Sequence record: PZ445487.1
Reading direction: 5' to 3' (one strand)
Source of the DNA: a phage
DNA: 64,000 bases
Part shown: positions 15,788 through 32,955 of the stretch, one piece after another
Layout: every line of letters begins with the position of its first letter
Position numbering within the stretch: position 1 is the stretch's first letter
Made by a program: the position numbers and the translations under genes
Notes under the pieces: generated by a model
Told to the model about the DNA's origin: nothing
Database searches by the model: none
What the model saw: the letters and a program-made list of their open reading frames with translations, nothing else

Positions 15788-15817
15788 TAAAACGTTCTCC
15801 ACAGCAAAGGTGCTAAC

Positions 15818-16315
15818 ATGACAGGTGTACAATTCAAAAACGAAAATCCTAATTTCGCGGCTTCCGATAAATGGCGCTTAACTATCGGAGACCTGATATT
15901 GCTTACTCGTTCAATACATGACTTCAGTATTCCTGGAGTGTATTCTGAAGGTATCGAGGGTCCATCCCCTGGCGATGTGCTCAACTCCATACCTTCAGAA
16001 CGTCTCACGTATGACCCCATCGTATTTACGTTCGTTATCGATGAGAGTTGGTACAACTGGGAACAGATTTACAATTGGATTGCGTCTAATGCTGGATCTG
16101 ATTTAGCTGTTAGCCGCGACATCACCATCGACCTTCTTGATAACATGAATCGACCTATTGGTCTACAATTGTTGTTGGAAGAAGCCCGTCCCACAGCTTT
16201 GGATAACGTATTGGTGGATGTGGATGCTGCGGTTCCCCAACTGGTCACGACTGTTACGTTCAAATATTTGAAACTGACTCCGACTCGCGTCACCCGCGAA
16301 ATTGATAAACAATAA
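15818..16315 (+). CDS. Hypothetical protein (165 aa)
   Basis: ORF with no recognisable motif. Confidence 0.45.
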   Translation: MTGVQFKNENPNFAASDKWRLTIGDLILLTRSIHDFSIPGVYSEGIEGPSPGDVLNSIPSERLTYDPIVFTFVIDESWYNWEQIYNWIASNAGSDLAVSRDITIDLLDNMNRPIGLQLLLEEARPTALDNVLVDVDAAVPQLVTTVTFKYLKLTPTRVTREIDKQ

Positions 16316-16353
16316 GTTATAATACAGAGAGTTGAAACAGCAGGGAATAAATC

Positions 16354-16809
16354 ATGAGCGAAACAAAACTTGAAACGATGAAAACCGAAGATATAATGGC
16401 AGAATTGGAACCTCTTATTTCGGTAAATCCTGAAGACATGAACTTAGACCAAATGTCATTGAAAATTGGTCGTTCGTGGATGACTGTGCAACGCCATTAT
16501 ATTCGTGAAGGAAGATATCTGGAGTATCTAACTGGCAAATTCCGCCAAATAGATCTCTATTTACGCCGATTTTATGCAGGGGAATTGCCGCCCAACGTTT
16601 ATGTTGAACGCCCATTAAAAGTTCGACCCCTGAAATCTGATATAGATGTATGGGTAAAAGCAGATGATGATTATATCGAATTGTCTAGCATGCTTCAAGA
16701 GCAGAAAGCCAAAGTCAAGTTCATCGAAAGTTGCTTAGATCGTTTGAACAAACTCGGATATGAAGTGAAGAATGCTATTGATTGGCGAAAATATTTGGAT
16801 GGGATGTAA
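16354..16809 (+). CDS. Hypothetical protein (151 aa)
   Basis: ORF preceded by aggg...aaatcATG. Confidence 0.45.
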   Translation: MSETKLETMKTEDIMAELEPLISVNPEDMNLDQMSLKIGRSWMTVQRHYIREGRYLEYLTGKFRQIDLYLRRFYAGELPPNVYVERPLKVRPLKSDIDVWVKADDDYIELSSMLQEQKAKVKFIESCLDRLNKLGYEVKNAIDWRKYLDGM

Positions 16810-17555
16810 TGGTTTCTCTACAGGCTTTGCGCAAACTTAATGACTTTGAAAATCGTCATCATACATTTCAGCAATATTCCTTGCCGTTTAAGGAACTGAC
16901 TTGCGTAACTACCGAAAATGGTCGTCACTATGTTTCCCCCACTGGAGTCAAACTAACTTCAGTGACGACCATGTTAGGGCGTACTGGTGACCACACATGG
17001 TTAGAAGCCTGGCGGGACAAGTTGGGGCATGAAGCTGCTGATATAGAAACACATCGTTGCGCAGACCGTGGGGAAAAACTTCATTTGGCTTGTGAGTTGT
17101 ATCTCAAAAACAGACCAATGAAGGAAGTTCTGGAAGCTGCAGGGGAATACGTGTTTATGTTCAAACAGGTTTTCCCCTACCTTAACAAAATGAGCAAGAT
17201 ATATGCACAAGAGATTCCATTATATAGCGAAGTCCTGGGTCTTGCTGGTCGTGTTGACCTCATCGGGGTTTACGAAGGAATTCCAAGCATAATCGATTTC
17301 AAAACATCTAACACCCTAAAAACTCGAAGCATGATAGAAGATTATAGTATTCAATTGTGTCTATACTCAGTCATGTTTCAACAAATGTTTAATGTCAAGA
17401 TAGAGCGTTTAATCAATATTATATCCAACGAAAATGCCCTTGTTCCCACCATAATCGAATTCGATCGCAAAGACGTTATTTCTAAAATGTTTGACCGTGT
17501 CCGTCTGTATCACAAAATGGACAAAGAACAGAAAGGAATCTGGGCGGATCGCTAA
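16809..17555 (+). CDS. Putative PD-(D/E)xK family nuclease
   Basis: GRVDLIG ... IIDFKTSN fits the D...(D/E)xK core of RecB/Cas4/lambda-exonuclease-type nucleases; ATG overlaps the preceding stop. Confidence 0.45.
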   Translation: MVSLQALRKLNDFENRHHTFQQYSLPFKELTCVTTENGRHYVSPTGVKLTSVTTMLGRTGDHTWLEAWRDKLGHEAADIETHRCADRGEKLHLACELYLKNRPMKEVLEAAGEYVFMFKQVFPYLNKMSKIYAQEIPLYSEVLGLAGRVDLIGVYEGIPSIIDFKTSNTLKTRSMIEDYSIQLCLYSVMFQQMFNVKIERLINIISNENALVPTIIEFDRKDVISKMFDRVRLYHKMDKEQKGIWADR

Positions 17556-19089: not shown

Positions 19090-19455
19090 TCAAATATCTT
19101 GATTCACATAGGCGGGGGTTGCCTCGCCTTCTTTGTTGGAACCAAATAAACAGTCGATCGTGCCAATACATTGTTGTAGCACTTTCGGCTCAAGAATCTG
19201 AGAAAACAATTCTTCATTGGATGCCAGCAATGGAACAACTTTCACTTCCCGCGCCTGGCCTTGTTGAATAATGCCAACATATAGACCTTTGTTATTTGGG
19301 AGTAATGGTATCACCAACATCGGTGACACAATAAACCCCGATGTACAGAAAAGGCTTTGTAAATAAACGCCTTTAAATGACGGACGTTGTTCTGCTATGG
19401 AAAGAATTACTTCTTGGTCTTCCCCTACTGCGTATAAACCAACAAATTGCTTCAT
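19090..19455 (-). CDS. Hypothetical protein (121 aa), opposite strand
   Basis: Only ORF in an otherwise non-coding 700-bp stretch after uvsW; weak SD (gaga); could be spurious. Confidence 0.3.
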   Translation of the reverse strand: MKQFVGLYAVGEDQEVILSIAEQRPSFKGVYLQSLFCTSGFIVSPMLVIPLLPNNKGLYVGIIQQGQAREVKVVPLLASNEELFSQILEPKVLQQCIGTIDCLFGSNKEGEATPAYVNQDI

Positions 19456-21986: not shown

Positions 21987-22451
21987 ATGGCGCGTAATAC
22001 GCTGGACATCTTAAAACTTTCAGCTGTCAACGATGAGGCCAGCATTGTTGACTGTATGGTTGAAGTTCAATTGAACCAAGACAAACCAGGGATTTTCCTG
22101 GGTATCAAGGAAACGCTGAGTCGGATAGGGGTTAACACTCGTCAAGAGCCTAACACCTTGTATCAAACGTGCCATATCCTGCATAAATTTGGCAGATATC
22201 ACATCGTGCATTTCAAGCATTTGTTCATGCTAGATGGGCACTACAACGGCTTTACGCGTGAAGATGTCCTGCGTATGAATCGGATTATACGGCTTCTGGA
22301 GCAATGGAATATGGTTAAGATCTTGCATCCGGAACAAATAACCGAAGTGGCTGACATGTCTCGGATCAAAGTTGTAAAACATGACCAAGTTTCTGAGTGG
22401 AAATTGGTTCCAAAATACACTATTCGCCCAAGTCGGGCAAAAAGCGAATAA
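21987..22451 (+). CDS. regA: Translational repressor RegA
   Basis: KETLSRIGV, LYQTCHILHKFGRYHIVHFKHLFMLDG and EWKLVPKYTI match T4 RegA blocks; has about 23 extra N-terminal residues if the SD-supported ATG at 21987 is used. Confidence 0.8.
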   Translation: MARNTLDILKLSAVNDEASIVDCMVEVQLNQDKPGIFLGIKETLSRIGVNTRQEPNTLYQTCHILHKFGRYHIVHFKHLFMLDGHYNGFTREDVLRMNRIIRLLEQWNMVKILHPEQITEVADMSRIKVVKHDQVSEWKLVPKYTIRPSRAKSE

Positions 22452-22467
22452 CTGGAGTCGCTATATT

Positions 22468-23337
22468 ATGACAACTACATTTAATAAAAACGTGAGATTG
22501 AATTTGGCTTTTGGTAATGCGGCTGGAGATATTACAGCCCCTGACTTCGGTAAAATTCGCAATCAGGCCAAACTGGTTCTGGAAGAGACCCGCGAATTAC
22601 TGGAAGCGGCTTATTTCGACCACGAGGTGAAAATTGAGTTCACTGCATCTCCGCGAGTCCTGAAAGAACCTGCTGTTGTCGACATCAAAGACATTATGCG
22701 CCAGATTCTGGACGCTCAGGGTGATATCACAACAGTCAATGACGGCGTGGCACACATTGCTGGTTTCAACGGCGATGAGTGCTTGCAGCGTGTTTATGCC
22801 TCCAACATGAGCAAATTTATTCGCTCAGAAGATGAAGTCGGTCCGGCACTGGAATATTATTATTCACGCGGTTTCCCAGATGGCCAGTTACGTGTTGAAG
22901 GTGAATTCCCTCAGGCATGCATCAAAGTGAATGAGACTGTGATGTGGAATGGCAAAGAATATCCGAAAGGAAAATTCCTGAAAAACATGGCTGTGTTCAA
23001 AGAGCCTGATTTCTCTGATATGCTGACGAATACCCCTTCCCGTCAGATCAATGACATCGTTGCCAGCATGGCAATTGAAGAAGGTCAGGTATTTGTTGAT
23101 GATTTGAACGGCGTGGCGTTGGTATCTCCAAAAACGTTGGAAATAATTCTTTCTATGGCAGTTGAAAAATCTTCTCGACCCGTAGATGTTAACGGCCAAA
23201 TTGAAAGTTATGTGCCAGCGTATATCATTAACGATACCAATATGCCTAAGCTGTGTGGGGTGTGGGGTGCTAATGTTCGTGTATACGCGTGCGCACCTGT
23301 TCAAAACACTGTGACACACCTCTCTCGCTTCGATTAA
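22468..23337 (+). CDS. Hypothetical protein (290 aa), possible MazG-like NTP pyrophosphatase fold at the N-terminus
   Basis: AKLVLEETRELLEAAY ... DIKDIMRQILDAQGDI loosely fits the all-alpha NTP-PPase EExxE...D pattern; T4 has gene 43 after regA, absent here. Confidence 0.4.
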   Translation: MTTTFNKNVRLNLAFGNAAGDITAPDFGKIRNQAKLVLEETRELLEAAYFDHEVKIEFTASPRVLKEPAVVDIKDIMRQILDAQGDITTVNDGVAHIAGFNGDECLQRVYASNMSKFIRSEDEVGPALEYYYSRGFPDGQLRVEGEFPQACIKVNETVMWNGKEYPKGKFLKNMAVFKEPDFSDMLTNTPSRQINDIVASMAIEEGQVFVDDLNGVALVSPKTLEIILSMAVEKSSRPVDVNGQIESYVPAYIINDTNMPKLCGVWGANVRVYACAPVQNTVTHLSRFD

Positions 23338-23406
23338 TATAATCCGTTATTCACTAAACAACAGAGGCTATAATGGCCTCTGTTTTTGTATTCTAGAGAG
23401 GATACC

Positions 23407-24612
23407 ATGAAAGATAAACCACATGACATCCCATATTGCGGTGTCCGTGAAACCAAAATCAAATCAGCCCATCCTATGTTAAGTTCATTCCACCGCCAGC
23501 TGGCATATGAATGGATGAGGGATCGTTATGCGATACATGTCAAGAAGGACGTGCAATGCCTTCCAGCGCCATGGACGGATAATCCGGTATTACGCCAAGT
23601 CAAGTTTTGTAACGTGCGGAGAGAGCACGATAGGCAGTCTCGAAATTTGATCAATAATATCATCCTCGATCAGGATCTCACGCTATCTGACAAAATGTTC
23701 AACTGTGTATTGTTCCGCATGTACAACATGTGGGAACCTATACAGGCTTTGGGTGGTCCATGGACGATCGAAGAATTCGGAAACATAAATCTTGAATGGT
23801 GTCGAGATGTTCTTCAGGAATTCGAATCTAAAGGTGGCAAAGTTTTCACCAATGCGTTTAATACAGGCGGTCTGAAACAATGCCTGGCTTTCCCTGAACT
23901 AGTTGTCAACCACAAGGAGCAACGCTTTGGCGGCATGAAGGTAAAAGTCCATCGGGTTGGCGGTGTTATAGATGAAATGGATTACAAGGTTGCCAAGAAG
24001 CTGGCCGAAGATAATCCTGGTGAATACAAAATAGAAGGCTGGGAACCATACATGCCGATGCGAGTCATCCGCTCTTTGAAGGCATTCGTCAACAAACACC
24101 CTCATTACTTTGATCGCCTCAGGGAATTTAGCCGTCCCGACTCTGTTTACCAGGCGATGTATGACGACATTGAGGGGCTTGGACCATTCTTGGCATACCA
24201 GATTTGGGTTGATTTTACATACATCGATGAATATCCATTCAGTGAAAACCACTTCACTATCGCTGGTCCAGGTTGCCGTGCTGGTATCGATCTGTTATTT
24301 TTGGACAAGGACGGCATGACGCATGAAGAATGCATATTCTGGGTTCGTGATCATCAAGATCAATTGTTCGCTCAGTACGGGTATAAACGTAATGAATTTT
24401 GGTCGGCAGAAGAACCGGAAGACCGTTGCATGAATGTTATGCAGTTGGAGAACATGTTCTGTGAACTTCAGAAATATACCCGCTGCGTTGAGGCGGTGAT
24501 GCGCGGGGAGAAACCTCGAGGAAAGGTGGGGTATAATGGTGGTGAAGTTAATCAGCCATTACAGAAGACTCCCGTTCGTTCTATTAATCTGTTAGAGAAG
24601 ATGAAAAAATGA
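23407..24612 (+). CDS. Hypothetical protein (401 aa), possible helix-hairpin-helix motif
   Basis: SD agagagga upstream; DIEGLGPFLAYQIWVDF ... AGPGCRAGID is reminiscent of an HhH-GPD element; no P-loop. Confidence 0.45.
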   Translation: MKDKPHDIPYCGVRETKIKSAHPMLSSFHRQLAYEWMRDRYAIHVKKDVQCLPAPWTDNPVLRQVKFCNVRREHDRQSRNLINNIILDQDLTLSDKMFNCVLFRMYNMWEPIQALGGPWTIEEFGNINLEWCRDVLQEFESKGGKVFTNAFNTGGLKQCLAFPELVVNHKEQRFGGMKVKVHRVGGVIDEMDYKVAKKLAEDNPGEYKIEGWEPYMPMRVIRSLKAFVNKHPHYFDRLREFSRPDSVYQAMYDDIEGLGPFLAYQIWVDFTYIDEYPFSENHFTIAGPGCRAGIDLLFLDKDGMTHEECIFWVRDHQDQLFAQYGYKRNEFWSAEEPEDRCMNVMQLENMFCELQKYTRCVEAVMRGEKPRGKVGYNGGEVNQPLQKTPVRSINLLEKMKK

Positions 24613-25016
24613 AACCCGTAAAACATCATCGTTCATGGAAAGTATGCCCAGCGTGTTCAAGTCGGGCGACAAAATTGTTCAACATGAATACTGGGAAATA
24701 TGAATGTCAAGTCTGTCGGCATCATTATGATGATCCAAAATGTCGATCTTTGGTCGACAAAATTTATAAATTTATCATTTTGTTGGGTAATTGCGAGCAA
24801 TATCAATATACCGTGTATGGTGATAGTTTAAGCCAGATCGATAAACATCTTTTGAAATTGATTTCGAAATACGATAAAGAAAGCAAGCGCCCTGTGCGCG
24901 TTGTGAGTACTCCAAAGGGTTATCCAAAGGGAACAAGATCAGTTACGGTTGTTGGTTACACCAGTTATGACGGGAAACGGTTCAGAAGTATTCGAGTAAA
25001 CATGATTCCCGTTTAA
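24609..25016 (+). CDS. Zinc-ribbon protein (135 aa)
   Basis: CPAC...(19)...CQVC motif near the N-terminus; ATGA overlap with the preceding gene. Confidence 0.45.
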   Translation: MKPVKHHRSWKVCPACSSRATKLFNMNTGKYECQVCRHHYDDPKCRSLVDKIYKFIILLGNCEQYQYTVYGDSLSQIDKHLLKLISKYDKESKRPVRVVSTPKGYPKGTRSVTVVGYTSYDGKRFRSIRVNMIPV

Positions 25017-25112
25017 ACTTTTCAATAAATCTTTTCAGCGTATATTGACCTCACTTTAACGACGCGCCCCGATAAGGGCGCTCACTTTGAACTGAAACAG
25101 GAAGACTATACC

Positions 25113-27131
25113 ATGGCAGAATTCAAACCCTTCGCAACGGCAGTTAATAACAACGTGCTGGCGATGTCCGCAACTGGTCTGTTCATGACCAATATCGATA
25201 AAGATGCTCTTTGGGATCTGTATCTGGCATCTTTCCCTGCTGGTACTAACCCGCTGTACCGCGAACGTACTGAACACGATTGCACCTGCTGTAAACAATT
25301 CATCCGTAACATCGGCGGTGTTGTCACCATCGATTCAGAGCTGAACGTAATTTCTATCTGGGACAACATTGATCTGGGCAATGAATATGACGTGGTGGCT
25401 GCGGCTCTTTCCGCGTATGTCAAACAACACGCAATCGTCGATGTTTATTTTAACGATTCTGCTAAAGTCGGCCTGTCTCACAATCACGAATCTGGTGAAG
25501 ATGGCAAAATCCGTACTTACAATCATTTCCATACCCAATTACTTGGTAGCTATGTTCTGCGTCCGGACGCAATCGCTTCGAAAAAAGGTGAAATCCGCCA
25601 GGCTATTGAATTGTTTGAACGCGGTCTGCGTGAAATTACTCTGGAATCAGCTGAAATCGTTCTGGAACTGATTGACCAGAATTCTCTGTATCGCGGCGCA
25701 GAACACAAAGCAGCAGTGAAGGGATTTGTTGAAACCAAAAAGGCATATGAACAAGTCCCCGAATCAGCCCGTTCTCTTTGGGCATGGCATACTGGATACC
25801 GTTCAAACAATCATGTTCCACACGGCATCCGCAACACAGTTATCGGCACTCTGCTGACAGATATCAGTGAAGGCGTGGAACTGGAAAAGGCTGTTAAATC
25901 GTTTGAATCCAAAGTTGCTCCGGCGAACTACAAACGTCCGACAGCGCTGGTTTCAAAATCCATGATCGAAAACGCTCAGAAAGAAGTTATTGCTCTGGGT
26001 TTGGAAGACTCACTGGCGCGTCGTTATGCGGTTTACGATGATCTGACAATCAACAACGTTCTGTTCGCAGATCTGGCTGCTCAGAAAGCGATGGATCCGT
26101 TTGCACAGCTGGCCGCCGAAGTGAAAACTCCGACCAAGTCCCTGGAAAAAGTTGAAGAGATCAGCGTTGATGATTTCCTGAGCAATGTTCTGCCAAAAGC
26201 GCATTCAATGGAAGTGCTTGTAGAGAATTCTCATACTAGCAACCTGATGTCCCTGGTTGCTCCGGCGAACCCAGATGCGCCTAACCTGTTCAAGTGGAAC
26301 AACGGTTTCTCCTGGTCTTACAACGGTGAAGTGACCGATTCCATTAAAGAACGTGTAAAGGCTGCTGGTGGTAAAGTTGACGGGTATCTGCGCGTTTCCT
26401 TGGCGTGGCACAACAACGACGACCTCGATCTGCATATGTTCAACAACATGGAGCACGTTTACTTCCGCGATCGCCGCTCTATGACAGGTGCCCATCTGGA
26501 TATCGATATGAACGGTATGGATGGTATTGATCCAAACCGCGCTCCGGTGGAAAATATCATCTTTACAGATGAAAGCAAGCTGCGCGATGGTGAATACCGT
26601 TTCGAAATCCACAACTACAATCAACGTGAAAAAATCGACGAAGGGTTTGAAGTCGAAGTAGAATACAAAGGCGCAACGCATCGTTTCAGCCATCCTGGCC
26701 TGAAAGATCAGGGACGTATCACCGCAGTCATCTTGACTGTTAAAGACAAACAAGTTGTTGGCATTAAGTCCGAACTGGCTAATGTTGATAAGTCTAAAGA
26801 AGTTTGGGGTATCAAGACTGCGACCTTCCAGAAAGTACAGCTGGTCCTGAACTCACCAAACCATTGGGATGGCGAGCAGACAGGCAACAAGCACGTGTTC
26901 TTCATCCTGGAAGGTTGTGCTAATCCTGAAGGTACTCGTGGTTTCTACAACGAATATCTGAAGCCGGAACTGGATAAACATCGTAAGGTTTTTGAAATGT
27001 TGGGTAGTAAAATGAAAGTCCAGCCGAATGAAAACCAACTGTCTGGTCTGGGATTCTCGACGACGCAACGCAACCACGTGTTCGTCAAAGTGTCCGGCGC
27101 GTTTAACCGTACTGTAAAAGTCATCTTCTAA
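25113..27131 (+). CDS. Large hypothetical protein (672 aa)
   Basis: Long uninterrupted ORF with good RBS context; no canonical motif recognised (no Walker A, no polymerase or ligase motifs). Confidence 0.55.
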   Translation: MAEFKPFATAVNNNVLAMSATGLFMTNIDKDALWDLYLASFPAGTNPLYRERTEHDCTCCKQFIRNIGGVVTIDSELNVISIWDNIDLGNEYDVVAAALSAYVKQHAIVDVYFNDSAKVGLSHNHESGEDGKIRTYNHFHTQLLGSYVLRPDAIASKKGEIRQAIELFERGLREITLESAEIVLELIDQNSLYRGAEHKAAVKGFVETKKAYEQVPESARSLWAWHTGYRSNNHVPHGIRNTVIGTLLTDISEGVELEKAVKSFESKVAPANYKRPTALVSKSMIENAQKEVIALGLEDSLARRYAVYDDLTINNVLFADLAAQKAMDPFAQLAAEVKTPTKSLEKVEEISVDDFLSNVLPKAHSMEVLVENSHTSNLMSLVAPANPDAPNLFKWNNGFSWSYNGEVTDSIKERVKAAGGKVDGYLRVSLAWHNNDDLDLHMFNNMEHVYFRDRRSMTGAHLDIDMNGMDGIDPNRAPVENIIFTDESKLRDGEYRFEIHNYNQREKIDEGFEVEVEYKGATHRFSHPGLKDQGRITAVILTVKDKQVVGIKSELANVDKSKEVWGIKTATFQKVQLVLNSPNHWDGEQTGNKHVFFILEGCANPEGTRGFYNEYLKPELDKHRKVFEMLGSKMKVQPNENQLSGLGFSTTQRNHVFVKVSGAFNRTVKVIF

Positions 27132-27168
27132 TTGATTTGACCACAAATTCGTAATAAGGAACAATGAA

Positions 27169-27540
27169 ATGTTTGATCAAGCAACCCGTTTAAAACTGCG
27201 TTTCAACTCTAACAAAGGTCTGCTGTCTGTTGAGCAGGTTTGGGATCTGAACCTGAATGCCCTAAACGAACTGGCGAAAGACCTCAGCCGTCAGGTGAAG
27301 GAAGCCGCCAGCGATGAAGAAGATTTCATCGGCGTGAAAAGCGCAGTCGACTCTCAGTTACAACTGCGTTTCGATATCGTGAAAGCGATCATCGGTGTTA
27401 AACTGAAAGAACGTGACGAAAGCGCAACCGCCGCCGAACGTAAAGCGAACAACCAGGTTATTCTGGAACTGATCCAGCGTAAGAAACAGCAGGAGCTTGA
27501 AGGTAAATCTCTTGAAGAACTGGAAGCGCTGTTGAAATAA
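27169..27540 (+). CDS. Hypothetical coiled-coil protein (123 aa)
   Basis: Charged helical ORF with SD aaggaa, followed by a terminator hairpin. Confidence 0.45.
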   Translation: MFDQATRLKLRFNSNKGLLSVEQVWDLNLNALNELAKDLSRQVKEAASDEEDFIGVKSAVDSQLQLRFDIVKAIIGVKLKERDESATAAERKANNQVILELIQRKKQQELEGKSLEELEALLK

Positions 27541-27562
27541 TCTGTCGGCTCCGGCCTGAGCA

Positions 27563-27588
27563 ACCCCGCCGTGTGCGGGGTTTCTTTT
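27563..27588 (+). terminator. Rho-independent terminator
   Basis: ccccgc-cgtgt-gcgggg followed by tttcttttgg. Confidence 0.5.
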
Positions 27589-27599
27589 GGAGAAATATT

Positions 27600-27836
27600 A
27601 TGAAACAAATTACTAAGACAGTACAAATCACCCAATATCAAACGGATGACGGCAGAGTGTTCGATACTCTTGGTCAGGCCGAACATTATGAGAAGATGAA
27701 GTCTGGTATTCGCAAGGTATGCCCTTCTTGTGATGGCAAAGGTCGCGACTCTCCGTCGGGCGACGGGCGTGATATGACGACTTGTCATTATTGTGGTGGT
27801 AAAGGCTGGGTAGAAAAGAAAGAGATATGGGGTTAA
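27600..27836 (+). CDS. Small zinc-finger protein with two CxxCxGKG repeats (78 aa)
   Basis: CPSCDGKG and CHYCGGKG resemble DnaJ-type zinc-finger repeats; SD ggag upstream. Confidence 0.5.
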   Translation: MKQITKTVQITQYQTDDGRVFDTLGQAEHYEKMKSGIRKVCPSCDGKGRDSPSGDGRDMTTCHYCGGKGWVEKKEIWG

Positions 27837-28246
27837 TGAAACCTGTCATCTGTGATTACTGCGGTCAACCTGCCCAATACGTCGGGGGCGATGCTGTATA
27901 CCCCCACCGCCCCGACCTCCGCAATCTGAAGTTCTGGGTATGCTCGCCATGCGACGCTCGTGTGGGTTGCCATACCCATGGGGATGGTAGACAACCTCTG
28001 GGAAGGATGGCGAATGCCGCTCTCCGTGCTGCTAAGCAGGAAGCTCATAGGTCGTTTGACCCTATCTGGAAAAGTGGGCAGAGGAGCAGGAGTGATGCTT
28101 ACAGCTGGCTGGCTCATAATCTGGGGATCAAGAAGCGCGATTGCCATATCGGCTTGTTCGATATCGATATGTGCCGTAAAGTAGTCGCTGTGTGTAATCA
28201 ACTAAAGGCACAAGATAATGTCAAAGGAAATACAAGAAGCATTTGA
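27836..28246 (+). CDS. Zinc-finger protein (136 aa)
   Basis: CDYCG...CSPCDARVGCH cysteine cluster; TAATG overlap with the preceding gene. Confidence 0.45.
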   Translation: MKPVICDYCGQPAQYVGGDAVYPHRPDLRNLKFWVCSPCDARVGCHTHGDGRQPLGRMANAALRAAKQEAHRSFDPIWKSGQRSRSDAYSWLAHNLGIKKRDCHIGLFDIDMCRKVVAVCNQLKAQDNVKGNTRSI

Positions 28247-28469
28247 AAAATTATCTCAGGTAATGACCGACTGCAACCGCCGAAATTACTGCGATGAAGC
28301 GTATACCAAATTGAAAACTGCTGTTGAAACCGAGCTGGCAGGTCTTTCCGTTTTCAAAGATATTCAGACCGAAGTGCTATATCTGTCGGATGAAGATTTA
28401 AGGCGTTGCCCCCGCAAGATTTACCAATTACTGGATCGTTTGGTGAAAGTGGGGGTGAATAATGGGTAA
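28218..28469 (+). CDS. Hypothetical protein (83 aa)
   Basis: ORF overlapping the neighbouring gene ends. Confidence 0.35.
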   Translation: MSKEIQEAFEKLSQVMTDCNRRNYCDEAYTKLKTAVETELAGLSVFKDIQTEVLYLSDEDLRRCPRKIYQLLDRLVKVGVNNG

Positions 28470-29187
28470 TCGTGAAGGGATTAAACTCACACCAGAACTT
28501 CTGAAGTCACATATTGCTGAAGTGATTTATGAAGACCGTGAAGTTGGTGGTCACCGCGTCATTACATGCCATTTCAAGATGGACAATGGGTTCGTTGTGT
28601 GGGGTAAGAATAGTTCCACATCGGTAGACCCTGCCAACTTCGATGAAGAAATAGGCAAGCAGCTGGCCTATGAAAAGACCCTTTCTCAACTGTGGGAACT
28701 GGAAGCATATCGCGCGATAGTAGAAAAGCAGATCATCGATGTGTCCGCCAAAGATGATAAGATCAACATTGATGAATATGTGTCAGAAAGGGAAGCGATA
28801 CATGAGATGGGTGGTTTTGAATTCCTTGAGGGTAAAGGACAATCCGTCGTGTTTCGTCATCCCAAGGATCCAAGTCGGGGATTTCGAGTTGAATTTGTTC
28901 GCACCGATAATGAACGTTATGACGAACGGCGTAATGGTGAAGCAAGATCTTTGGTGGAAGCGTATCTTCGCTCGTTTATGACTTCTGAAGATCTAAATTC
29001 TGAACTTGTCTTGCGTTTGGCGAAAACGTGTAATGCTGCTTCAGGGGATTATCCGTGGTGTGACCTGTCAGAAGAAAAACGCCAAGCAGCTTGTGATCGT
29101 GTTAAGAAATTCTTGTTAGATCCGAAAGCCCAACCTGGTGATTCCGTGGGGGCGCTGTATAGAGCCATCGTGGTGTCATACTTGTAA
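28462..29187 (+). CDS. Hypothetical protein (241 aa), N-terminal Gp49-like region
   Basis: LTPELLKSHIAEV...HRVITCHFKMDNGFVVWG resembles a conserved phage family I recall as Gp49-like; low certainty. Confidence 0.4.
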   Translation: MGNREGIKLTPELLKSHIAEVIYEDREVGGHRVITCHFKMDNGFVVWGKNSSTSVDPANFDEEIGKQLAYEKTLSQLWELEAYRAIVEKQIIDVSAKDDKINIDEYVSEREAIHEMGGFEFLEGKGQSVVFRHPKDPSRGFRVEFVRTDNERYDERRNGEARSLVEAYLRSFMTSEDLNSELVLRLAKTCNAASGDYPWCDLSEEKRQAACDRVKKFLLDPKAQPGDSVGALYRAIVVSYL

Positions 29188-29454
29188 TTCTTCAAAAGTC
29201 TTTCAAAATCAATAACGTCCGGCAAATTGCTGGGCGTTTCAATTAACAAGCCAAGGTATAATGGCCCAATTGTAAAGCGAGGGAAATTACTTTGCCCAAA
29301 CCATTTTTGCGTTCAGGAGTTGACTCTCTTGACTCACAGTTTAAACCCAGCGAAGTTTTAATTCAACAGATTGAAACTAATCGCGAATTCATAGAACACA
29401 TGCTGGCGAAGCCGGAAGGTGAAGCCGTCCATACCACTAAAGAAGGTAATAACG

Positions 29455-31671
29455 ATGATTGAATCATTAACATTTAAGAATGCGGTTGCGACCGTCGCGC
29501 CGTCTAACCATGTAATCGTTGTGGATATCTCCGGTTCCATGTATCGTTCACTTCCAGAAGTCCGTAAGCATCTGAAGGAGAACCTGCCTTCCCTGGTGAA
29601 ACCGGAAGATACTGTGAGCATCCTTTACTTTTCATCTCGCGGTGATTTCGGAACGGTATTTGCCGGACGTCAGATTAACAGTGCAACTGATCTCAGTGAG
29701 ATCAATAATTTAATTGACCGTTTCCTGAAGCCTTCTGGTTGTACTGGTTTTGTTGAGCCGCTGAAATTGGCTGCGGAAACTGCCATTAGCTTGAATAAAC
29801 CTGGTTATGTTAATAACCTGGCATTCATGACCGACGGATATGACAACTGCTGGCGTTCTAATGAAATCCTGGATGCCGCTGAAGTACTGCCCAAAGCGTT
29901 TGATAACATTACCTTCATCGAATACGGTTGGTATTGTAATCGCGAACTGCTGGCGCTAATGGCAGAACGTTCTGGTGCGACCCACGTATTCGCCGAAGGC
30001 CAGAATGAATATCAGACCGAATTGGAAAACGTGCTAAAAACTTCTTCACCGAAAGTGGTGGTCGATGTTCCCCTGGTTTACACCCATGCCATTTATGTTG
30101 AAAATGGCGTGGCGACTGTTTTAGCTGTGCATCCTGATGAAGAGCACCCTATTGGCCACGTCAGCATCCCTGAAAGCGTTTCTCAGCTGTGGGTTGTAAA
30201 CCCCAACATGATCGACCAGCTGGATAATCTGGCAGACATCCAAGCGGCATACGTGCTGGCATTTTACGGCGTGTATACCATGGACGCAGATTTGGTTTGG
30301 GCTGCGCTGAAGAAAACGGGTGACGTCCGCTTCATCAAACAATACAGCAACTGTTTCACCAAGCAGGATTACTCCAACATCAAAGTCGATCTGACTCAGG
30401 CTATCGTAGACGAATCTCTGCGAGGAGTTGATGGCATCGATTATAATATGGTTCCGGCTGAAGACGCCACCACCATTGTTGATGTTCTGACGTATTTGGC
30501 TGAAGCAGATGTCTCTATCGTCACCAAGCATCCGCTATTCTCTTACAAGAGCATTGGGCGCGGTACTATACAAAAAGTTGACGACACCGAAGACAAGTTG
30601 GCCGAAGAGATTGCGAATGCGACTTCTAAAGAAGAGCGTAAAGCCCTGGCGCTCAAACTGGCCGAGCACGAAGATTGGACGCCGGAATTCAATCCAGCAG
30701 ATGATAAAGGGATTGTCCCGATCAGCAATTTGGTCTATAATTCAGAACGTCCTAACATCAGTGTGCAGACAGTTCAACACGGAACGGTTATTGTGCCTGA
30801 GTTTGTACAGAAGAAATATGAACTTCCTGAAGAGCTGGGAACCTGGCGTTATCGCAATTACACCATTGTCAAGGATGGTATCATCAACCTGAAAACAATG
30901 CCTATCACTGCAGATTCTCCGATTGTTCGGGCTAAGGTGGCACAGGATTTGACTGCCATGGGTGTTCATGTGTTTGGTGGGCCGGAAGTCTTCATTGTAA
31001 ATCTGGAAAGTGTCCCAATGGTTAACCGCGCCATGACAAAGAATATCAGTGCTGCTGAATTCTTTGCAGACAATGTGCGCCGTGAAGCATTGAAGGCAAA
31101 GCAAAAAGTTCTGAAATTCTACCGTGATGAACTGGTTGGCAAAGGCAACGCTACTGGTCTGGCTTCAAAATATGGCAAAGAAGCGGCTGATTTCCTGTCA
31201 GCAAACGGCATTCGCGACTATGGATTTTCACCGAAGACTTCTTCTGTAGAATCAACCGATGTCTATATGAGTCGTGAATTGAATGTGAAAATCAAAGGCG
31301 CATCTTCACTGCCGAGCATCGCGTCTGTTATCAAAAAACAGACGGACGGTAAAAAACTGAATGTCGCTGATCAGCTGATCGCTAATGCCCTGGCCGAATA
31401 CAATGCGTTTGTTAAATCGCCGATGATCACCAGCGTACCGGAAGAGACTCAGAAAAAGCTGATCGAAAGTTGGATTGGTGATGCAGCAAAAGCAGCTATC
31501 AACGAAGTTCGATCTCTGAACAAAACGCTGTCCAAGGTAGTTTATGGGATTGTTGCAGGCCATGGTTGGTTTACCGACCTGGATTTGGAAGAATCCACTA
31601 TGGATGTGGAAGTTGATGGGGTGAAATACACTGTCACTGCCGAACTGGCTGAAAAAGAAGTCAAAATCTAA
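29455..31671 (+). CDS. von Willebrand factor A (vWA) domain protein (738 aa)
   Basis: N-terminus carries the MIDAS motif in VIVVDISGSMY (DxSxS) with downstream T and D positions typical of vWA; about 550 aa of unassigned sequence follow. SD aagaagg before ATG 29455. Confidence 0.55.
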   Translation: MIESLTFKNAVATVAPSNHVIVVDISGSMYRSLPEVRKHLKENLPSLVKPEDTVSILYFSSRGDFGTVFAGRQINSATDLSEINNLIDRFLKPSGCTGFVEPLKLAAETAISLNKPGYVNNLAFMTDGYDNCWRSNEILDAAEVLPKAFDNITFIEYGWYCNRELLALMAERSGATHVFAEGQNEYQTELENVLKTSSPKVVVDVPLVYTHAIYVENGVATVLAVHPDEEHPIGHVSIPESVSQLWVVNPNMIDQLDNLADIQAAYVLAFYGVYTMDADLVWAALKKTGDVRFIKQYSNCFTKQDYSNIKVDLTQAIVDESLRGVDGIDYNMVPAEDATTIVDVLTYLAEADVSIVTKHPLFSYKSIGRGTIQKVDDTEDKLAEEIANATSKEERKALALKLAEHEDWTPEFNPADDKGIVPISNLVYNSERPNISVQTVQHGTVIVPEFVQKKYELPEELGTWRYRNYTIVKDGIINLKTMPITADSPIVRAKVAQDLTAMGVHVFGGPEVFIVNLESVPMVNRAMTKNISAAEFFADNVRREALKAKQKVLKFYRDELVGKGNATGLASKYGKEAADFLSANGIRDYGFSPKTSSVESTDVYMSRELNVKIKGASSLPSIASVIKKQTDGKKLNVADQLIANALAEYNAFVKSPMITSVPEETQKKLIESWIGDAAKAAINEVRSLNKTLSKVVYGIVAGHGWFTDLDLEESTMDVEVDGVKYTVTAELAEKEVKI

Positions 31672-31679
31672 ATTCAACT

Positions 31680-31700
31680 GGCGGGGAAACCCGCCTTCAT
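31680..31700 (+). terminator. Rho-independent terminator after the vWA gene
   Basis: ggcgggg-aaa-cccgcc then ttcatttt. Confidence 0.5.
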
Positions 31701-31714
31701 TTTGAGATATGCTT

Positions 31715-32026
31715 ATGTCAAACAAACCAACTTATGTTGAAGTAATGCGTGTTCTGGCTCAGTACGCTTGTGACAACCTGAACATGGAAACTTGGCGCAA
31801 CGGGGATCACAAGGACAAGTTTGATAACATTGATGATAATATCGATGCTTTAGCGCCGTTACGGGTTAAGAATGATCTCGGCGGTGACGATCTTGACATG
31901 ATTGAGCTGGTCATGGAAATCGAAGAAGAGTACGATGTAGAAATTAGTGACGAGTGGGTGGGTAAACATGGAGATGATCCTACCCTCGGAGAGTTAGCTG
32001 AACTCGTCGTTGCCCTGCGCAAGTAA
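31715..32026 (+). CDS. Acyl carrier protein-like protein with Asp in place of the phosphopantetheine-attachment Ser
   Basis: DLGGDDLDMIELVMEIEEEYDVEISDE aligns to the ACP core DLGADSLD(T/M)VELVMALEEEF...I.DE, but the modified Ser is D (codon gat). Confidence 0.5.
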   Translation: MSNKPTYVEVMRVLAQYACDNLNMETWRNGDHKDKFDNIDDNIDALAPLRVKNDLGGDDLDMIELVMEIEEEYDVEISDEWVGKHGDDPTLGELAELVVALRK

Positions 32027-32032
32027 CTGAAG

Positions 32033-32059
32033 ATCCCCAACAAACGTTGGGGATTTTTA
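32033..32059 (+). terminator. Rho-independent terminator
   Basis: atccccaac-aaac-gttggggat followed by ttttt. Confidence 0.55.
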
Positions 32060-32068
32060 CTTTTAGGG

Positions 32069-32448: not shown

Positions 32449-32955
32449 ATGACCGATCAACAAATTCAAGATTTATTTTACCTCGTCCATGATAAGTCCC
32501 ACATCATGCGCCCTGGCACTGTTTCCCCTGCCATCCGTGGTCTGGTGCAAGAATTACGCGAACCGCAGATGACCACACTTTATCGCGGGTTGCCTAAAGA
32601 GGACGTTGCGCGTTTGGAGATGATGTTTGAACGAGGAGACATGTTTCAGACATGGGATTCTTGTCTTAGTTTCAGCGAACTGAAGCATGTGGCCAAACAA
32701 TTTTCTAAATCGTATGGAACCAAAGCTGTTGCCCGCATTTGTTATAAACATCGAAACGGACTCCCAGAGGGGCTTAATGTCTTTGGTTCTCTAGAAAAAT
32801 TTGTGAACAAAGGCGATGAATCAGAAATGGATATGCTGGACTTGGCGTCCATGGAGAAAGAATGGATATTCTGTCAGCCTCGCGTCTTCCCAGTTTCAAG
32901 AAAAATGGCAACAGATGGGACGATGGTTTTTACCGTATCACTTGTTACCCTATAA
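32449..32955 (+). CDS. Putative ADP-ribosyltransferase (ModA/ModB-like)
   Basis: R-S-ExE arrangement: LYRGLP (Arg), WDSCLSFS (Ser motif), EKEWIF (ExE) in the order and spacing of T4 ModA as I recall it; 168 aa. Confidence 0.4.
   Translation: MTDQQIQDLFYLVHDKSHIMRPGTVSPAIRGLVQELREPQMTTLYRGLPKEDVARLEMMFERGDMFQTWDSCLSFSELKHVAKQFSKSYGTKAVARICYKHRNGLPEGLNVFGSLEKFVNKGDESEMDMLDLASMEKEWIFCQPRVFPVSRKMATDGTMVFTVSLVTL

What the first reader, a model, noticed from the sequence alone, without database searches (positions are those of the whole stretch)
22468..31671. Accessory cluster of unknown proteins replacing the T4 gene 43 region after regA
In T4 regA is followed by DNA polymerase. Here it is followed by about 9 kb coding ten proteins with no T4 counterpart I recognise: a 290-aa protein with a possible NTP-pyrophosphatase-like N-terminus, a 401-aa protein with an HhH-like motif, three small zinc-finger proteins, a 672-aa protein, a Gp49-like protein and a 738-aa vWA protein. 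The genes are tightly packed and the block ends at a terminator, so it looks like one co-transcribed unit. Candidate functions are nucleotide or DNA modification, or anti-defence, but none is established.
Basis: inference. Interest (0 to 1): 0.65.

Follow-up and report, generated by a model that had tools for sequence, protein, structure and literature searches.

The report
Conserved mosaic gene block after regA
The 9-kb stretch after regA is a known, conserved part of phage CBA120 made of several unrelated gene modules, not one new system. Only its first two genes can be tied to a function, the phage's already published thymidine hypermodification.

Summary
The window is Escherichia phage CBA120 (Kuttervirus, Ackermannviridae), 100% identical to NC_016570. 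None has a BLAST-detectable T4 counterpart.

The block is not an accessory island or a single system. The same gene order recurs in four enterobacterial Ackermannviridae genera. Outside the family the parts travel separately:
- The 672-aa protein (Pfam DUF8224, with a TerD-like domain) always sits next to its ~130-aa neighbour, and the pair occurs alone in four unrelated phage groups.
- The vWA protein occurs alone in RB43.
- The 401-aa protein (Pfam HMUDK_hel, formerly aGPT-Pplase1) lies inside thymidine-hypermodification clusters in Vibrio and Pseudomonas phages.

Terminator-like hairpins sit between these modules. The 401-aa protein is the ortholog of ViI gp160. CBA120 DNA is already known to carry 5-(2-aminoethoxy)methyluridine. 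The essential enzymes of that pathway lie elsewhere in the genome, next to the DNA polymerase.

The remaining genes stay functionally unknown. Verdict: observation confirmed, interpretation partly supported, already known, modest interest.

The parts
21987..22451 (+). regA translational repressor (left boundary, context only)
   Evidence: 45% identical to T4 regA, E 5e-28. Annotated as orf160.
22468..23337 (+). orf157: all-alpha NTP pyrophosphohydrolase-like protein (MazG/HisE superfamily) with a lineage-specific C-terminal extension of about 100 aa
   Evidence: phrog_2144 'MazG-like pyrophosphatase', E 1e-135. No direct Pfam or PDB hit. A profile search found 331 distant relatives of residues 1-185, and four of ten scanned reach or pass the Pfam PRA-PH/MazG cut-offs. 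E39 E40 E43 E46 and D82 D86 D92 are invariant. The Serratia and Erwinia orthologs are only 186-191 aa.
23360..23384 (+). Terminator-like hairpin plus U-tract between orf157 and orf156
   Evidence: 11-bp stem, dG -15.9 kcal/mol, z -4.8, followed by UUUUUGUAUU. A terminator is annotated at the same position in Klebsiella phage May.
23407..24612 (+). orf156: stand-alone HMUDK_hel (formerly aGPT-Pplase1) protein, ortholog of ViI gp160, linked to thymidine hypermodification
   Evidence: Pfam PF18723, E 1.6e-83, covering 274 of 281 profile positions. 78% identical and syntenic to Vi01_130c, whose note reads orf00160. Homologs lie inside hypermodification clusters in Vibrio phage D533 and Pseudomonas phage ZC01. 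ViI gp160 was included in the five-lysate reconstitution (PMC5889632).
24609..25016 (+). orf154: small zinc-ribbon protein; its start overlaps the orf156 stop by 4 nt; variable gene
   Evidence: CxxC...CxxC motif with weak Zn-ribbon Pfam hits. phrog_16119. Present in CBA120 and Klebsiella May, absent from ViI, Serratia and Erwinia relatives.
25113..27131 (+). orf153: 672-aa DUF8224 protein with a TerD-like beta-sandwich at about residues 420-560
27169..27540 (+). orf151: 123-aa constant partner of orf153
   Evidence: phrog_2018. A homolog lies directly or nearly directly downstream of the DUF8224 gene in phiCbK, KpS8, Bcp1 and Ebordelon, at 36-45% identity. Two metagenomic contigs carry a 130-147 aa gene in the same position, not sequence-compared.
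27562..27582 (+). Terminator-like hairpin plus U-tract after orf151
   Evidence: 8-bp GC-rich stem, dG -18.5 kcal/mol, followed by UUUCUUUUGG.
27600..27836 (+). orf149: DnaJ-type CxxCxGxG zinc-finger protein, variable gene (the ORF can start at GTG 27573)
   Evidence: Weak DnaJ_CXXCXGXG and Anti-TRAP hits. phrog_12574. Among the loci compared, found only in CBA120.
27836..28246 (+). orf148: DUF3268 zinc-finger protein
   Evidence: Pfam PF11672, E 6e-38. Present in ViI, Klebsiella May and Erwinia phiEa2809, absent from Serratia 2050H1.
28218..28469 (+). 83-aa ORF, not annotated in RefSeq CBA120
   Evidence: phrog_9847, E 1e-56. 98% identical in ViI, where Vi01_125c covers it.
28462..29187 (+). 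orf146: protein with an N-terminal N4 Gp49 / Sf6 gp66 domain
   Evidence: Pfam PF13876, E 9e-13, residues 9-84. Conserved in all four Ackermannviridae genera compared.
29188..29291 (.). 104-nt intergenic gap with a weak hairpin; an insertion point in relatives
   Evidence: Hairpin dG -14.6 kcal/mol. Klebsiella phage May carries a Prs-like plus NAPRTase-family gene pair here.
29292..29462 (+). orf145: 56-aa ORF overlapping the orf143 start by 8 nt
   Evidence: Annotated in RefSeq. Conserved in ViI and Klebsiella May. No Pfam hit.
29455..31671 (+). orf143: 738-aa vWA protein with an intact MIDAS motif plus about 440 aa of unassigned C-terminal domains
31680..31695 (+).
   Evidence: 6-bp GC stem, dG -13.8 kcal/mol, with a weak U-tract UUCAUUUUGA.
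31709..32026 (+). orf142: acyl carrier protein, outside the stated coordinates but syntenic with the block
   Evidence: Pfam PP-binding, 30.7 bits. Follows the vWA gene closely in ViI and Klebsiella May; in Serratia 2050H1 three small ORFs intervene.
32028..32062 (+). Strongest intrinsic-terminator-like hairpin of the region, after the ACP gene
   Evidence: dG -19.8 kcal/mol, z -7.3, with a U5 tail.

Best explanation
The block is a vertically inherited stretch of the replication and nucleotide-metabolism arm of phage CBA120 (Kuttervirus). It joins at least four independent modules and is not a single system.

Module 1 is orf157 plus orf156, with the small zinc-ribbon gene orf154. It serves the phage's known thymidine hypermodification. 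In that pathway 5-hmdU is incorporated into DNA, phosphorylated on the base by 5-hmdU DNA kinases, serinylated by an amino-acid:DNA transferase and decarboxylated to 5-(2-aminoethoxy)methyluridine.
- orf156 is the free-standing version of the helical, DNA-glycosylase-fold domain that is fused to the kinase in phage SP10. It most likely binds 5-hmdU DNA and assists or directs the kinase step (inferred).
- orf157 is an all-alpha NTP pyrophosphohydrolase. It most likely trims a competing or aberrant dNTP pool (inferred; substrate unknown).

Module 2 is orf153 plus orf151, a self-contained and widely mobile two-gene unit. It consists of DUF8224, which has a TerD-like Ca2+/ligand-binding sandwich, and a constant ~130-aa partner.

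Module 3 is a variable run of small zinc-finger proteins plus a Gp49-like protein.

Module 4 is orf145 plus orf143, followed by the ACP gene. orf143 is a vWA protein whose intact MIDAS site implies metal-dependent binding of a protein ligand.

Modules 2-4 have no demonstrated function. My inference is that they bind host or phage proteins during early and middle infection and do not chemically modify DNA.
For: Identity: the window is 100% CBA120.

Synteny: the order regA, NTP-PPase, HMUDK_hel, DUF8224, partner, Gp49-like, vWA holds in ViI, Klebsiella May, Serratia 2050H1 and Erwinia phiEa2809 (the ACP gene was detected in the first three). The small zinc-finger genes come and go.

Independent distribution:
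- The DUF8224 + partner pair occurs alone in phiCbK, KpS8, Bcp1 and Ebordelon. Two metagenomic contigs show a 130-147 aa gene in the same position.
- The vWA protein occurs alone in RB43.
- Record counts and host spectra differ: 406, 559 and 504 records.

Transcription signals: hairpins with U-tracts flank the modules, and one is annotated as a terminator in phage May.

orf156:
- Pfam HMUDK_hel, E 1.6e-83, and ortholog of ViI gp160.
- In ZC01 the HMUDK_hel gene abuts the P-loop kinase gene within an ADDT, FAD, GNAT, kinase, HMUDK_hel, dUMP-hydroxymethylase cluster.
- In Vibrio D533 it sits between HMUD2/ADDT and the thymidylate-synthase-like gene.
- It is fused to the kinase in SP10 gp186 (PMC5889632).

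The rest of the pathway in CBA120: HMUD2, ADDT, a PLP enzyme, a TS-like gene and dUTPase_2 lie elsewhere in the genome. CBA120 virion DNA contains the 301-Da nucleoside 5-NeOmdU (PMC5889632).

orf157: PHROG MazG-like, transitive Pfam PRA-PH/MazG membership and a conserved acidic motif.

Against: - Conserved order on one strand across four genera could reflect functional coupling that distribution data alone cannot exclude.
- No transcript map exists. The hairpins are only predictions, and two of them have weak U-tracts.
- ViI gp160 was never shown to be needed. The kinase, gp247 and gp226 suffice in vitro (PMC8989533), and the SP10 kinase works without the helical domain. The role proposed for orf156 is therefore untested.
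- orf157 has no direct Pfam or PDB match. CBA120 already has a dUTPase_2 next to its dUMP hydroxymethylase, so the need for a second pyrophosphatase is unexplained.
- Nothing positive supports any specific role for modules 2-4.
Confidence: 0.68

Rival explanations
1. One reading: the whole 9-kb block is one co-transcribed functional system for DNA or nucleotide modification, or for anti-defence, and all ten or more proteins work together.
For: All genes are on the same strand, about 97% of the block is coding, and several start/stop codons overlap. The gene order is conserved in four Ackermannviridae genera. One member is a hypermodification-family protein. Relatives carry a NARP1-like counter-defence gene pair inserted within the block.
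Against: - The modules occur separately in other phages.
- In the 25-kb hypermodification locus of Vibrio phage D533 examined, only HMUDK_hel had a homolog among the block's genes.
- 5-NeOmdU synthesis was reconstituted without any other gene of the block (PMC5889632, PMC8989533).
- Internal terminator-like hairpins are present.
- There are no PADLOC hits.
Confidence: 0.1
2. orf153 (TerD-like) and orf143 (vWA) form an abbreviated phage-borne Ter-type system, like the TerD/TerF sets proposed to mediate superinfection exclusion or stress resistance in jumbo phages.
Against: - There is no Pfam TerD hit, and no TerF/TerY-type vWA hit; only generic VWA families match.
- No TerC, TelA or TerB was seen among the block's genes.
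- The two proteins do not co-occur outside Ackermannviridae. The phiCbK, KpS8, Bcp1 and N4-like loci have DUF8224 without this vWA, and the RB43 locus has the vWA without DUF8224.
- The constant partner of DUF8224 is the 123-aa protein, not a vWA protein.
Confidence: 0.07
3. The large unknown proteins (DUF8224, vWA) are virion or assembly components, for example vWA co-chaperones as in MoxR-vWA tail-assembly systems.
For: Peptides attributed to these homologs were found in CsCl-purified Sajous1 virions: the split DUF8224 homolog (my assignment, from its 'DNA-directed RNA polymerase' label) gave 3 + 1 spectra, the vWA protein 1 and the ACP 1 (PMC10892097). A MoxR-vWA chaperone precedent exists in viruses (PMC7824862). 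An AAA ATPase lies near the DUF8224 pair in Bcp1 and Ebordelon.
Against: - Spectral counts are at contaminant level; the clamp loader also gave 1, whereas structural proteins gave tens to hundreds.
- The genes sit in the replication arm, not the morphogenesis arm.
- The two neighbouring ATPases are unrelated to each other and have no homolog in the CBA120 sequence examined.
- No MoxR partner is present in the block.
Confidence: 0.07

Closest known systems
Salmonella phage ViI gp160 (aG/PT-PPlase clade 1; Pfam PF18723 HMUDK_hel) and the thymidine-hypermodification gene sets of ViI, M6, PaMx11, SP10 and PhiW-14
   Same: orf156 is 78% identical and syntenic to ViI gp160. It has a full-length Pfam match. 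The same phage genus has the same modified base, 5-NeOmdU, which has been measured in CBA120 DNA.
   Different: In CBA120 and ViI the gene is detached from the kinases, transferase and decarboxylase, which lie next to the DNA polymerase about 57 kb away. In Vibrio and Pseudomonas phages it is inside the cluster, and in SP10 it is fused to the kinase. No activity has been assigned to it, and it was dispensable in vitro.
All-alpha NTP pyrophosphohydrolases (MazG, HisE/PRA-PH, phage MazG-like proteins; T4 gp56 dCTPase as the functional analogue)
   Same: The N-terminal domain of orf157 is homologous by profile search to proteins that pass the Pfam PRA-PH/MazG thresholds. It keeps an EExxE...D...D acidic pattern. 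It sits among nucleotide-metabolism and replication genes.
   Different: There is no direct Pfam or PDB hit. It has an extra conserved middle region and a ~100-aa C-terminal extension confined to some Ackermannviridae. hhalign found no similarity to T4 gp56 or to CBA120's own dUTPase_2. The substrate is unknown.
TerD-domain proteins of tellurite-resistance (Ter) systems, including phage-borne Ter genes
   Different: orf153 is a 672-aa, five-domain protein catalogued only as DUF8224. It has no sequence-level TerD match and no other Ter genes nearby. Its constant partner is a ~130-aa helical protein.
vWA/MIDAS proteins with a following beta-sandwich (Catenulispora vWA 4fx5, ITIH1, archaeal ArnB, Sec23/24 trunk)
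   Same: The N-terminal ~300 aa share the vWA + beta-sandwich architecture, and the DxSxS...T...D MIDAS residues are conserved.
   Different: About 440 further residues have no assigned fold match. There is no AAA+/MoxR partner and no secretion signal evidence. The family is phage-restricted, with about 235 proteins shared between Ackermannviridae and RB43-like T4 relatives.
T4 replication cluster 45-44-62-regA-43
   Same: CBA120 keeps 45, 44, 62 and regA in the same order and orientation.
   Different: Gene 43 (DNA polymerase) is elsewhere in CBA120. The position after regA is occupied by family-specific genes that have no T4 homologs.

Membership tests
Pfam PF18723 HMUDK_hel (aGPT-Pplase clade 1) | Full-length match to the family profile above the curated cut-off | tested here: met
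   E 1.6e-83, 280.8 bits against a cut-off of 25, profile positions 5-278 of 281.
Pfam PF18723 HMUDK_hel (aGPT-Pplase clade 1) | The genome also encodes a dUMP hydroxymethylase-like enzyme, 5-hmdU DNA kinase(s) and an amino-acid:DNA transferase | tested here: met
   CBA120 orf073 is Thymidylat_synt-like, orf243 is HMUD2 (E 2e-149) and orf248 is ADDT (E 2e-57). All three lie outside the window.
Pfam PF18723 HMUDK_hel (aGPT-Pplase clade 1) | Physical linkage or fusion to the kinase or hypermodification cluster | tested here: not met
   In CBA120 and ViI the gene follows regA and the NTP-PPase, about 57-64 kb from the kinase/ADDT genes. Linkage is seen in ZC01 and Vibrio D533.
Pfam PF18723 HMUDK_hel (aGPT-Pplase clade 1) | A demonstrated biochemical role in hypermodification | not testable with these tools
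   The literature shows gp160 was included in the five-lysate mix but was not required once the purified kinase, gp247 and gp226 were used (PMC5889632, PMC8989533).
All-alpha NTP pyrophosphohydrolase superfamily (MazG / PRA-PH) | Direct profile match to MazG, PRA-PH or MazG-like Pfam families | tested here: not met
   No Pfam family at E <= 0.1 for orf157. No NCBIfam hit. No PDB hit even with a profile.
All-alpha NTP pyrophosphohydrolase superfamily (MazG / PRA-PH) | Homology to bona fide members through intermediate sequences | tested here: met
   The A3 profile hits P0366 (E 1.5e-41), P0368, P0375 and P0395. All four score above the PRA-PH cut-off, and P0375 also reaches the MazG cut-off. 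phrog_2144 and phrog_671 are annotated as pyrophosphohydrolases.
All-alpha NTP pyrophosphohydrolase superfamily (MazG / PRA-PH) | Conserved acidic metal-binding motif (EExxE ... ExxD-type) | tested here: inconclusive
   E39 E40 E43 E46 and D82 D86 D92 are invariant in 21 orthologs. Their equivalence to the MazG motif was judged by eye, without a structure.
TerD family (Pfam PF02342) | Sequence match to the TerD profile | tested here: not met
   No Pfam hit for orf153 at E <= 0.1. No PDB sequence hit.
TerD family (Pfam PF02342) | TerD beta-sandwich fold | tested here: met
Ter system (TerZABCDEF-type) | Co-occurrence with TerC/TerB/TelA or TerF/TerY-type vWA genes | tested here: not met
   No such families among the block's proteins. 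DUF8224 and the vWA protein do not co-occur outside Ackermannviridae.
Pfam PF26675 DUF8224 | Membership of the family | tested here: met
   119 of the 120 closest homologs, including a 97%-identical one, carry precomputed PF26675, which is named DUF8224. The local Pfam copy lacks the model, so orf153 itself could not be scored.
von Willebrand factor A (vWA) domain | Profile match, Rossmann-like vWA fold and MIDAS residues DxSxS...T...D | tested here: met
N4 Gp49 / Sf6 gp66 family (PF13876) | Profile match above the cut-off | tested here: met
   48.9 bits against a cut-off of 27, residues 9-84 of orf146. The C-terminal 155 aa are unassigned.
DUF3268 zinc-finger family (PF11672) | Profile match above the cut-off | tested here: met
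   130.3 bits against a cut-off of 28.4, full length.
Single operon / one transcription unit | Same strand, short gaps, and no internal terminators or promoters | tested here: inconclusive
   Same strand and gaps of 104 nt or less. However, terminator-like hairpins with U-tracts lie at 23360 and 27562. No transcriptome was found.
Horizontally acquired accessory island | Patchy presence among close relatives, or deviant composition | tested here: not met
   132 phage records cover at least 80% of the block. Six or seven genes are conserved in order across four genera. GC is 0.458 against 0.449 for the window.

The most novel reading that the evidence does not exclude
The DUF8224 protein (orf153, with a TerD-like Ca2+/ligand-binding domain) and its constant ~130-aa partner (orf151) form a self-contained two-gene phage system. 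It has spread horizontally, and its function is undiscovered but host-directed, for example counter-defence or sensing or sequestering a nucleotide-like signal.

The pair keeps 42-52% identity and 74 invariant residues across Ackermannviridae, Vequintavirinae, phiCbK-like, Bastille-like and N4-like phages. That suggests it acts on something universally conserved in bacteria.

A second possibility, also not excluded, is that orf156 sets which ~40% of thymidines are hypermodified.
Probability: 0.25. Interest if true: 0.6.

Novelty: already known. Interest (0 to 1): 0.28.

Why it matters
The finding as stated, a new accessory system replacing the polymerase gene, dissolves into a known and conserved genome segment of a well-studied therapeutic-candidate phage.

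Three concrete points remain useful:
- The only uncharacterised member of the published ViI/CBA120 thymidine-hypermodification gene set (gp160/orf156) is always paired with a divergent NTP pyrophosphatase in enterobacterial Ackermannviridae. This could guide experiments on why only about 40% of thymidines are modified.
- DUF8224 and its small partner form one of the more widespread uncharacterised two-gene units in tailed phages. It now has a fold-level handle, the TerD-like domain.
- The gap between the Gp49-like and vWA genes is an insertion site for NAD+-reconstitution (NARP1-like) genes in relatives, which marks a plasticity point in these genomes.

Tried and rejected
- **PDB sequence searches.** orf153, orf143, orf157 and orf156, plus a profile of orf157, found nothing meaningful.
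- **NCBIfam and PADLOC.** Scans of all ten proteins found nothing above the cut-offs.
- **hhalign of the orf157 profile.** No similarity to T4 gp56 or to CBA120 dUTPase_2, so orf157 is not a diverged gp56.
- **hhalign of the DUF8224 alignment.** No similarity to the 'tellurite resistance protein' of phage Ebordelon.
- **AAA ATPase as a third member of the DUF8224 module.** The Bcp1 and Ebordelon ATPases are unrelated to each other and are absent from the CBA120 sequence examined.
- **T4-type late promoter TATAAATA.** One match in 64 kb, none in the block, no more than chance.
- **Shared TATAATGGCC motif in two intergenic gaps.** Not enriched.
- **Sigma-70-like promoter scan.** Not above shuffled expectation.
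- **Literature search for a CBA120 transcriptome.** Nothing found.
- **AFDB Foldseek search.** The library was unavailable. BFVD returned only uncharacterised viral relatives.
- **T4 comparison.** T4 76-119 kb (the structural region) was not fetched, so 'no T4 counterpart' rests on 126 of 169 kb and on BLAST-level sensitivity.

Full report
**Identity of the sequence.** Window 22000-32000 is 100% identical over its full length to Escherichia phage CBA120 (JN593240 / NC_016570; Kuttervirus, Ackermannviridae), on the reverse strand of the record. In total, 275 phage records match the stretch by megablast and 132 of them cover at least 80% of it. Nearly all are Salmonella, Klebsiella, Escherichia, Dickeya, Shigella and Serratia phages of the same family. 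The RefSeq annotation places the finding between regA (orf160) and an acyl carrier protein gene (orf142).

**Check of the observation.** The block holds 12 ORFs rather than ten: eleven are annotated in RefSeq, and an 83-aa ORF at 28218-28469 is unannotated in CBA120 but 98% conserved in ViI. Gaps range from -29 to +104 nt, and about 97% of the block is coding. GC is 0.458 against 0.449 for the window, so the block does not stand out compositionally.

T4 does have the order 45-44-62-regA-43. I ran tblastn of all block proteins against 126 kb of T4, covering all its early and middle regions. Only regA matched (E 5e-28), and nothing else was below E 0.01. The statement 'no T4 counterpart' therefore holds at BLAST sensitivity.

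- orf157 is NTP-pyrophosphatase-like.
- orf154, orf149 and orf148 are zinc-finger proteins (weak Zn-ribbon hits, a DnaJ-type CxxCxGxG motif and DUF3268 at E 6e-38, respectively).
- orf146 has an N-terminal Gp49/Sf6 gp66 domain (E 9e-13).
- orf143 has a vWA domain.

**The DNA polymerase is not replaced.** CBA120 encodes its polymerase (orf237) about 57 kb away. Close downstream lie a 5-hmdU DNA kinase 2 (orf243, Pfam HMUD2, E 2e-149) and an amino-acid:DNA transferase (orf248, Pfam ADDT, E 2e-57). A PLP enzyme (orf228) lies about 4 kb upstream of the polymerase. A thymidylate-synthase-like dUMP hydroxymethylase (orf073) with a dUTPase_2 (orf070) sits at 34-37 kb of the record. All of these are outside the window.

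**The part with an assignable function.**

*orf156.* It matches Pfam PF18723 (HMUDK_hel, '5-hmdU DNA kinase, helical domain', formerly aGPT-Pplase clade 1) over essentially the whole profile, with E 1.6e-83. It is 78% identical and syntenic to ViI Vi01_130c, whose note 'orf00160' identifies it as the gp160 of Lee et al..

Those authors showed that ViI, CBA120 and CBA6 DNA carry a 301-Da nucleoside, 5-(2-aminoethoxy)methyl-2'-deoxyuridine, replacing about 40% of thymidines. They also showed that lysates expressing gp67, gp160, gp226, gp243 and gp247 make it from 5-hmdU DNA (PMC5889632). Later work with purified proteins assigned the steps to the kinases (gp67, gp243), the serine transferase (gp247) and the PLP decarboxylase (gp226). 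gp160 was left without a role (PMC8989533).

I found two independent cases of linkage:
- In Pseudomonas phage ZC01 the HMUDK_hel gene abuts the P-loop kinase gene within an ADDT, FAD oxidoreductase, GNAT, kinase, HMUDK_hel, dUMP hydroxymethylase cluster.
- In Vibrio phage D533 it lies between HMUD2/ADDT and the thymidylate-synthase-like, dNMP kinase and dUTPase_2 genes, next to the DNA polymerase.

In SP10 the domain is fused to the kinase, and the kinase works without it. The best reading is that orf156 is a DNA-binding accessory of the base-kinase step. This is inference.

*orf157.* It has no direct Pfam, NCBIfam or PDB match, and its full-length family is confined to Ackermannviridae (204 proteins). 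A profile search found 331 more distant relatives of its first ~185 residues. Of ten scanned, four reach or pass the Pfam PRA-PH or MazG cut-offs in the region that aligns to orf157 residues ~30-110. E39, E40, E43, E46, D82, D86 and D92 are invariant.

It is therefore an all-alpha NTP pyrophosphohydrolase with an added middle region and a C-terminal ~100 aa. The Serratia and Erwinia orthologs lack that C-terminal part. hhalign found no similarity to T4 gp56 or to CBA120's own dUTPase_2. Its substrate is unknown.

**The large unknown proteins.**

No polymerase-like fold appears, so the 'DNA-directed RNA polymerase' label carried by some records is unsupported. BFVD holds only uncharacterised relatives.

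**Is it one unit?** Two lines of evidence say no.

First, distribution:
- The 672-aa protein occurs in 559 phage records. These include Vequintavirinae-like, phiCbK-like, Bastille-like Bacillus and N4-like Pseudomonas phages.
- The vWA protein occurs in 504 records. These include RB43-like, Slopekvirus-like and Rhizobium phages.
- HMUDK_hel occurs in 406 records. These include Vibrio, Pseudomonas and Microbacterium phages.
- In phiCbK, KpS8, Bcp1 and Ebordelon, the DUF8224 gene is followed by a homolog of orf151 (36-45% identity), and no other gene of the block is nearby. Two metagenomic contigs likewise carry a 130-147 aa gene just downstream, though I did not compare those sequences.
- The RB43 locus has the vWA gene alone.
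- The Vibrio D533 locus has HMUDK_hel alone.

Second, transcription signals:
- Stable hairpins with U-tracts lie exactly between the evolutionary modules. One follows orf157 (23360-23384, dG -15.9, z -4.8) and one follows orf151 (27562-27582, dG -18.5).
- Weaker hairpins follow orf154, orf146 and orf143.
- The strongest terminator-like element comes only after the ACP gene (dG -19.8, z -7.3).
- The annotators of Klebsiella phage May placed terminators after the NTP-PPase gene and after the vWA gene.
- Start/stop overlaps define sub-groups: orf156-orf154, orf149-orf148-ORF83-orf146, and orf145-orf143.

No transcriptome was found to settle this.

**It is not accessory within the family.** The order regA, NTP-PPase, HMUDK_hel, DUF8224, partner, Gp49-like, vWA holds in ViI (Kuttervirus), May (Taipeivirus), 2050H1 (Miltonvirus) and phiEa2809 (Nezavisimistyvirus); an ACP homolog follows the block in ViI, May and 2050H1 but was not detected in phiEa2809. 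Only the small zinc-finger genes and the 83-aa and 56-aa ORFs vary. A published core-gene analysis lists the vWA, zinc-finger and NTP-PPase genes among the 114 Vi01-like core genes. Virion mass spectrometry of phage Sajous1 found only trace spectra attributable to these homologs: 3 + 1 for two proteins labelled 'DNA-directed RNA polymerase', which I take to be the split DUF8224 gene, 1 for the vWA protein and 1 for the ACP (PMC10892097). They are therefore expressed but are not evident structural proteins.

**Mechanism and rivals.** I commit to the mosaic reading with confidence of about 0.68.
- Module 1 supports the known 5-NeOmdU pathway. orf156 acts as a DNA-binding partner of the base kinase and orf157 as a dNTP-pool editor. 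Both roles are inferred.
- Modules 2-4 are protein-binding factors of unknown target.

The single-system reading gets about 0.10, a Ter-like TerD + vWA system about 0.07, and a virion or assembly role about 0.07. The Ter-like idea rests on the fold match and on published reports of Ter genes in phages (PMC7824862, PMC8386662). It fails on the absence of a sequence-level TerD match, the absence of other Ter genes, and the lack of co-occurrence of the two proteins.

**Novelty and value.** The sequence, its annotation, the modified base and the candidate role of gp160 are all published, so I class the finding as already known. Three things remain open and testable. One is the role of HMUDK_hel, including why only about 40% of thymidines are modified. 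Another is the substrate of the divergent pyrophosphatase. The third is the function of the DUF8224 + partner pair, which is unusually conserved across unrelated phage lineages: 42-52% identity, with 74 invariant residues among 61 close homologs of at least 48% identity.

**Limits.**
- The AFDB library was unavailable.
- T4 76-119 kb was not compared.
- Promoter and terminator calls are consensus predictions only.

Noticed in passing
L013 (Klebsiella phage May) 16444-18959; corresponds to the window gap 29188-29291: Relatives carry a two-gene insertion between the Gp49-like gene and orf145/vWA. It consists of a ribose-phosphate-pyrophosphokinase-like gene and a NAPRTase-family gene. These phages include May, and, judging by their annotations, Se-G and D5lw. 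This domain pair matches the published NAD+ reconstitution pathway 1 (Adps + Namat), a counter-defence system. CBA120 lacks it.
   Followed up: partly
window 19090-19455, minus strand: A 121-aa ORF lies on the opposite strand in the 710-nt unannotated gap between the helicase (orf165) and gp45 (orf163). It is 74% identical to ViI Vi01_136 and 35% identical to Klebsiella May_086, so it is probably a real gene missing from the CBA120 RefSeq annotation.
   Followed up: partly
L002 (ViI) 15301-17320; window 25113-27131: The DUF8224 gene is split into two ORFs in the ViI record (Vi01_129c and Vi01_128c). Salmonella phage 38 also matches in two pieces, and Sajous1 lists two adjacent proteins (gp179, gp180) with the same 'RNA polymerase' label that I take to be its split homolog. 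The gene is intact in CBA120 and most relatives. This could be a frameshift, a sequencing error or tolerated disruption.
   Followed up: no
L005 (Bacillus phage Bcp1) 14553-15320: A metallo-beta-lactamase-fold protein that passes the Pfam Anti-Pycsar Apyc1 cut-off lies about 3 kb downstream of the DUF8224 + partner pair in Bcp1. An AAA ATPase lies between them.
   Followed up: no
window 32449-32955: orf140 is annotated in RefSeq as 'RNA polymerase ADP-ribosylase' but has no Pfam hit at E <= 0.001. ViI has an endonuclease V-like gene at about the same position.
   Followed up: no
window 31709-32026: A phage-encoded acyl carrier protein (PP-binding, 30.7 bits) follows the vWA gene closely in ViI and Klebsiella May, and further downstream in Serratia 2050H1. 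It is followed by the strongest terminator-like hairpin of the region. Its function in a lytic phage is unexplained.
   Followed up: partly
window about 4218-4676 (L001 1719-2177): A GIY-YIG homing endonuclease gene is inserted between the tail sheath and tail tube genes.
   Followed up: no
L011 40403-41185 (CBA120 record 148402-149184, outside the window): orf240, which lies between the DNA polymerase and the HMUD2 kinase, matches the NT5C 5'-deoxynucleotidase family. It may be a further nucleotide-pool enzyme of the hypermodification cluster.
   Followed up: no
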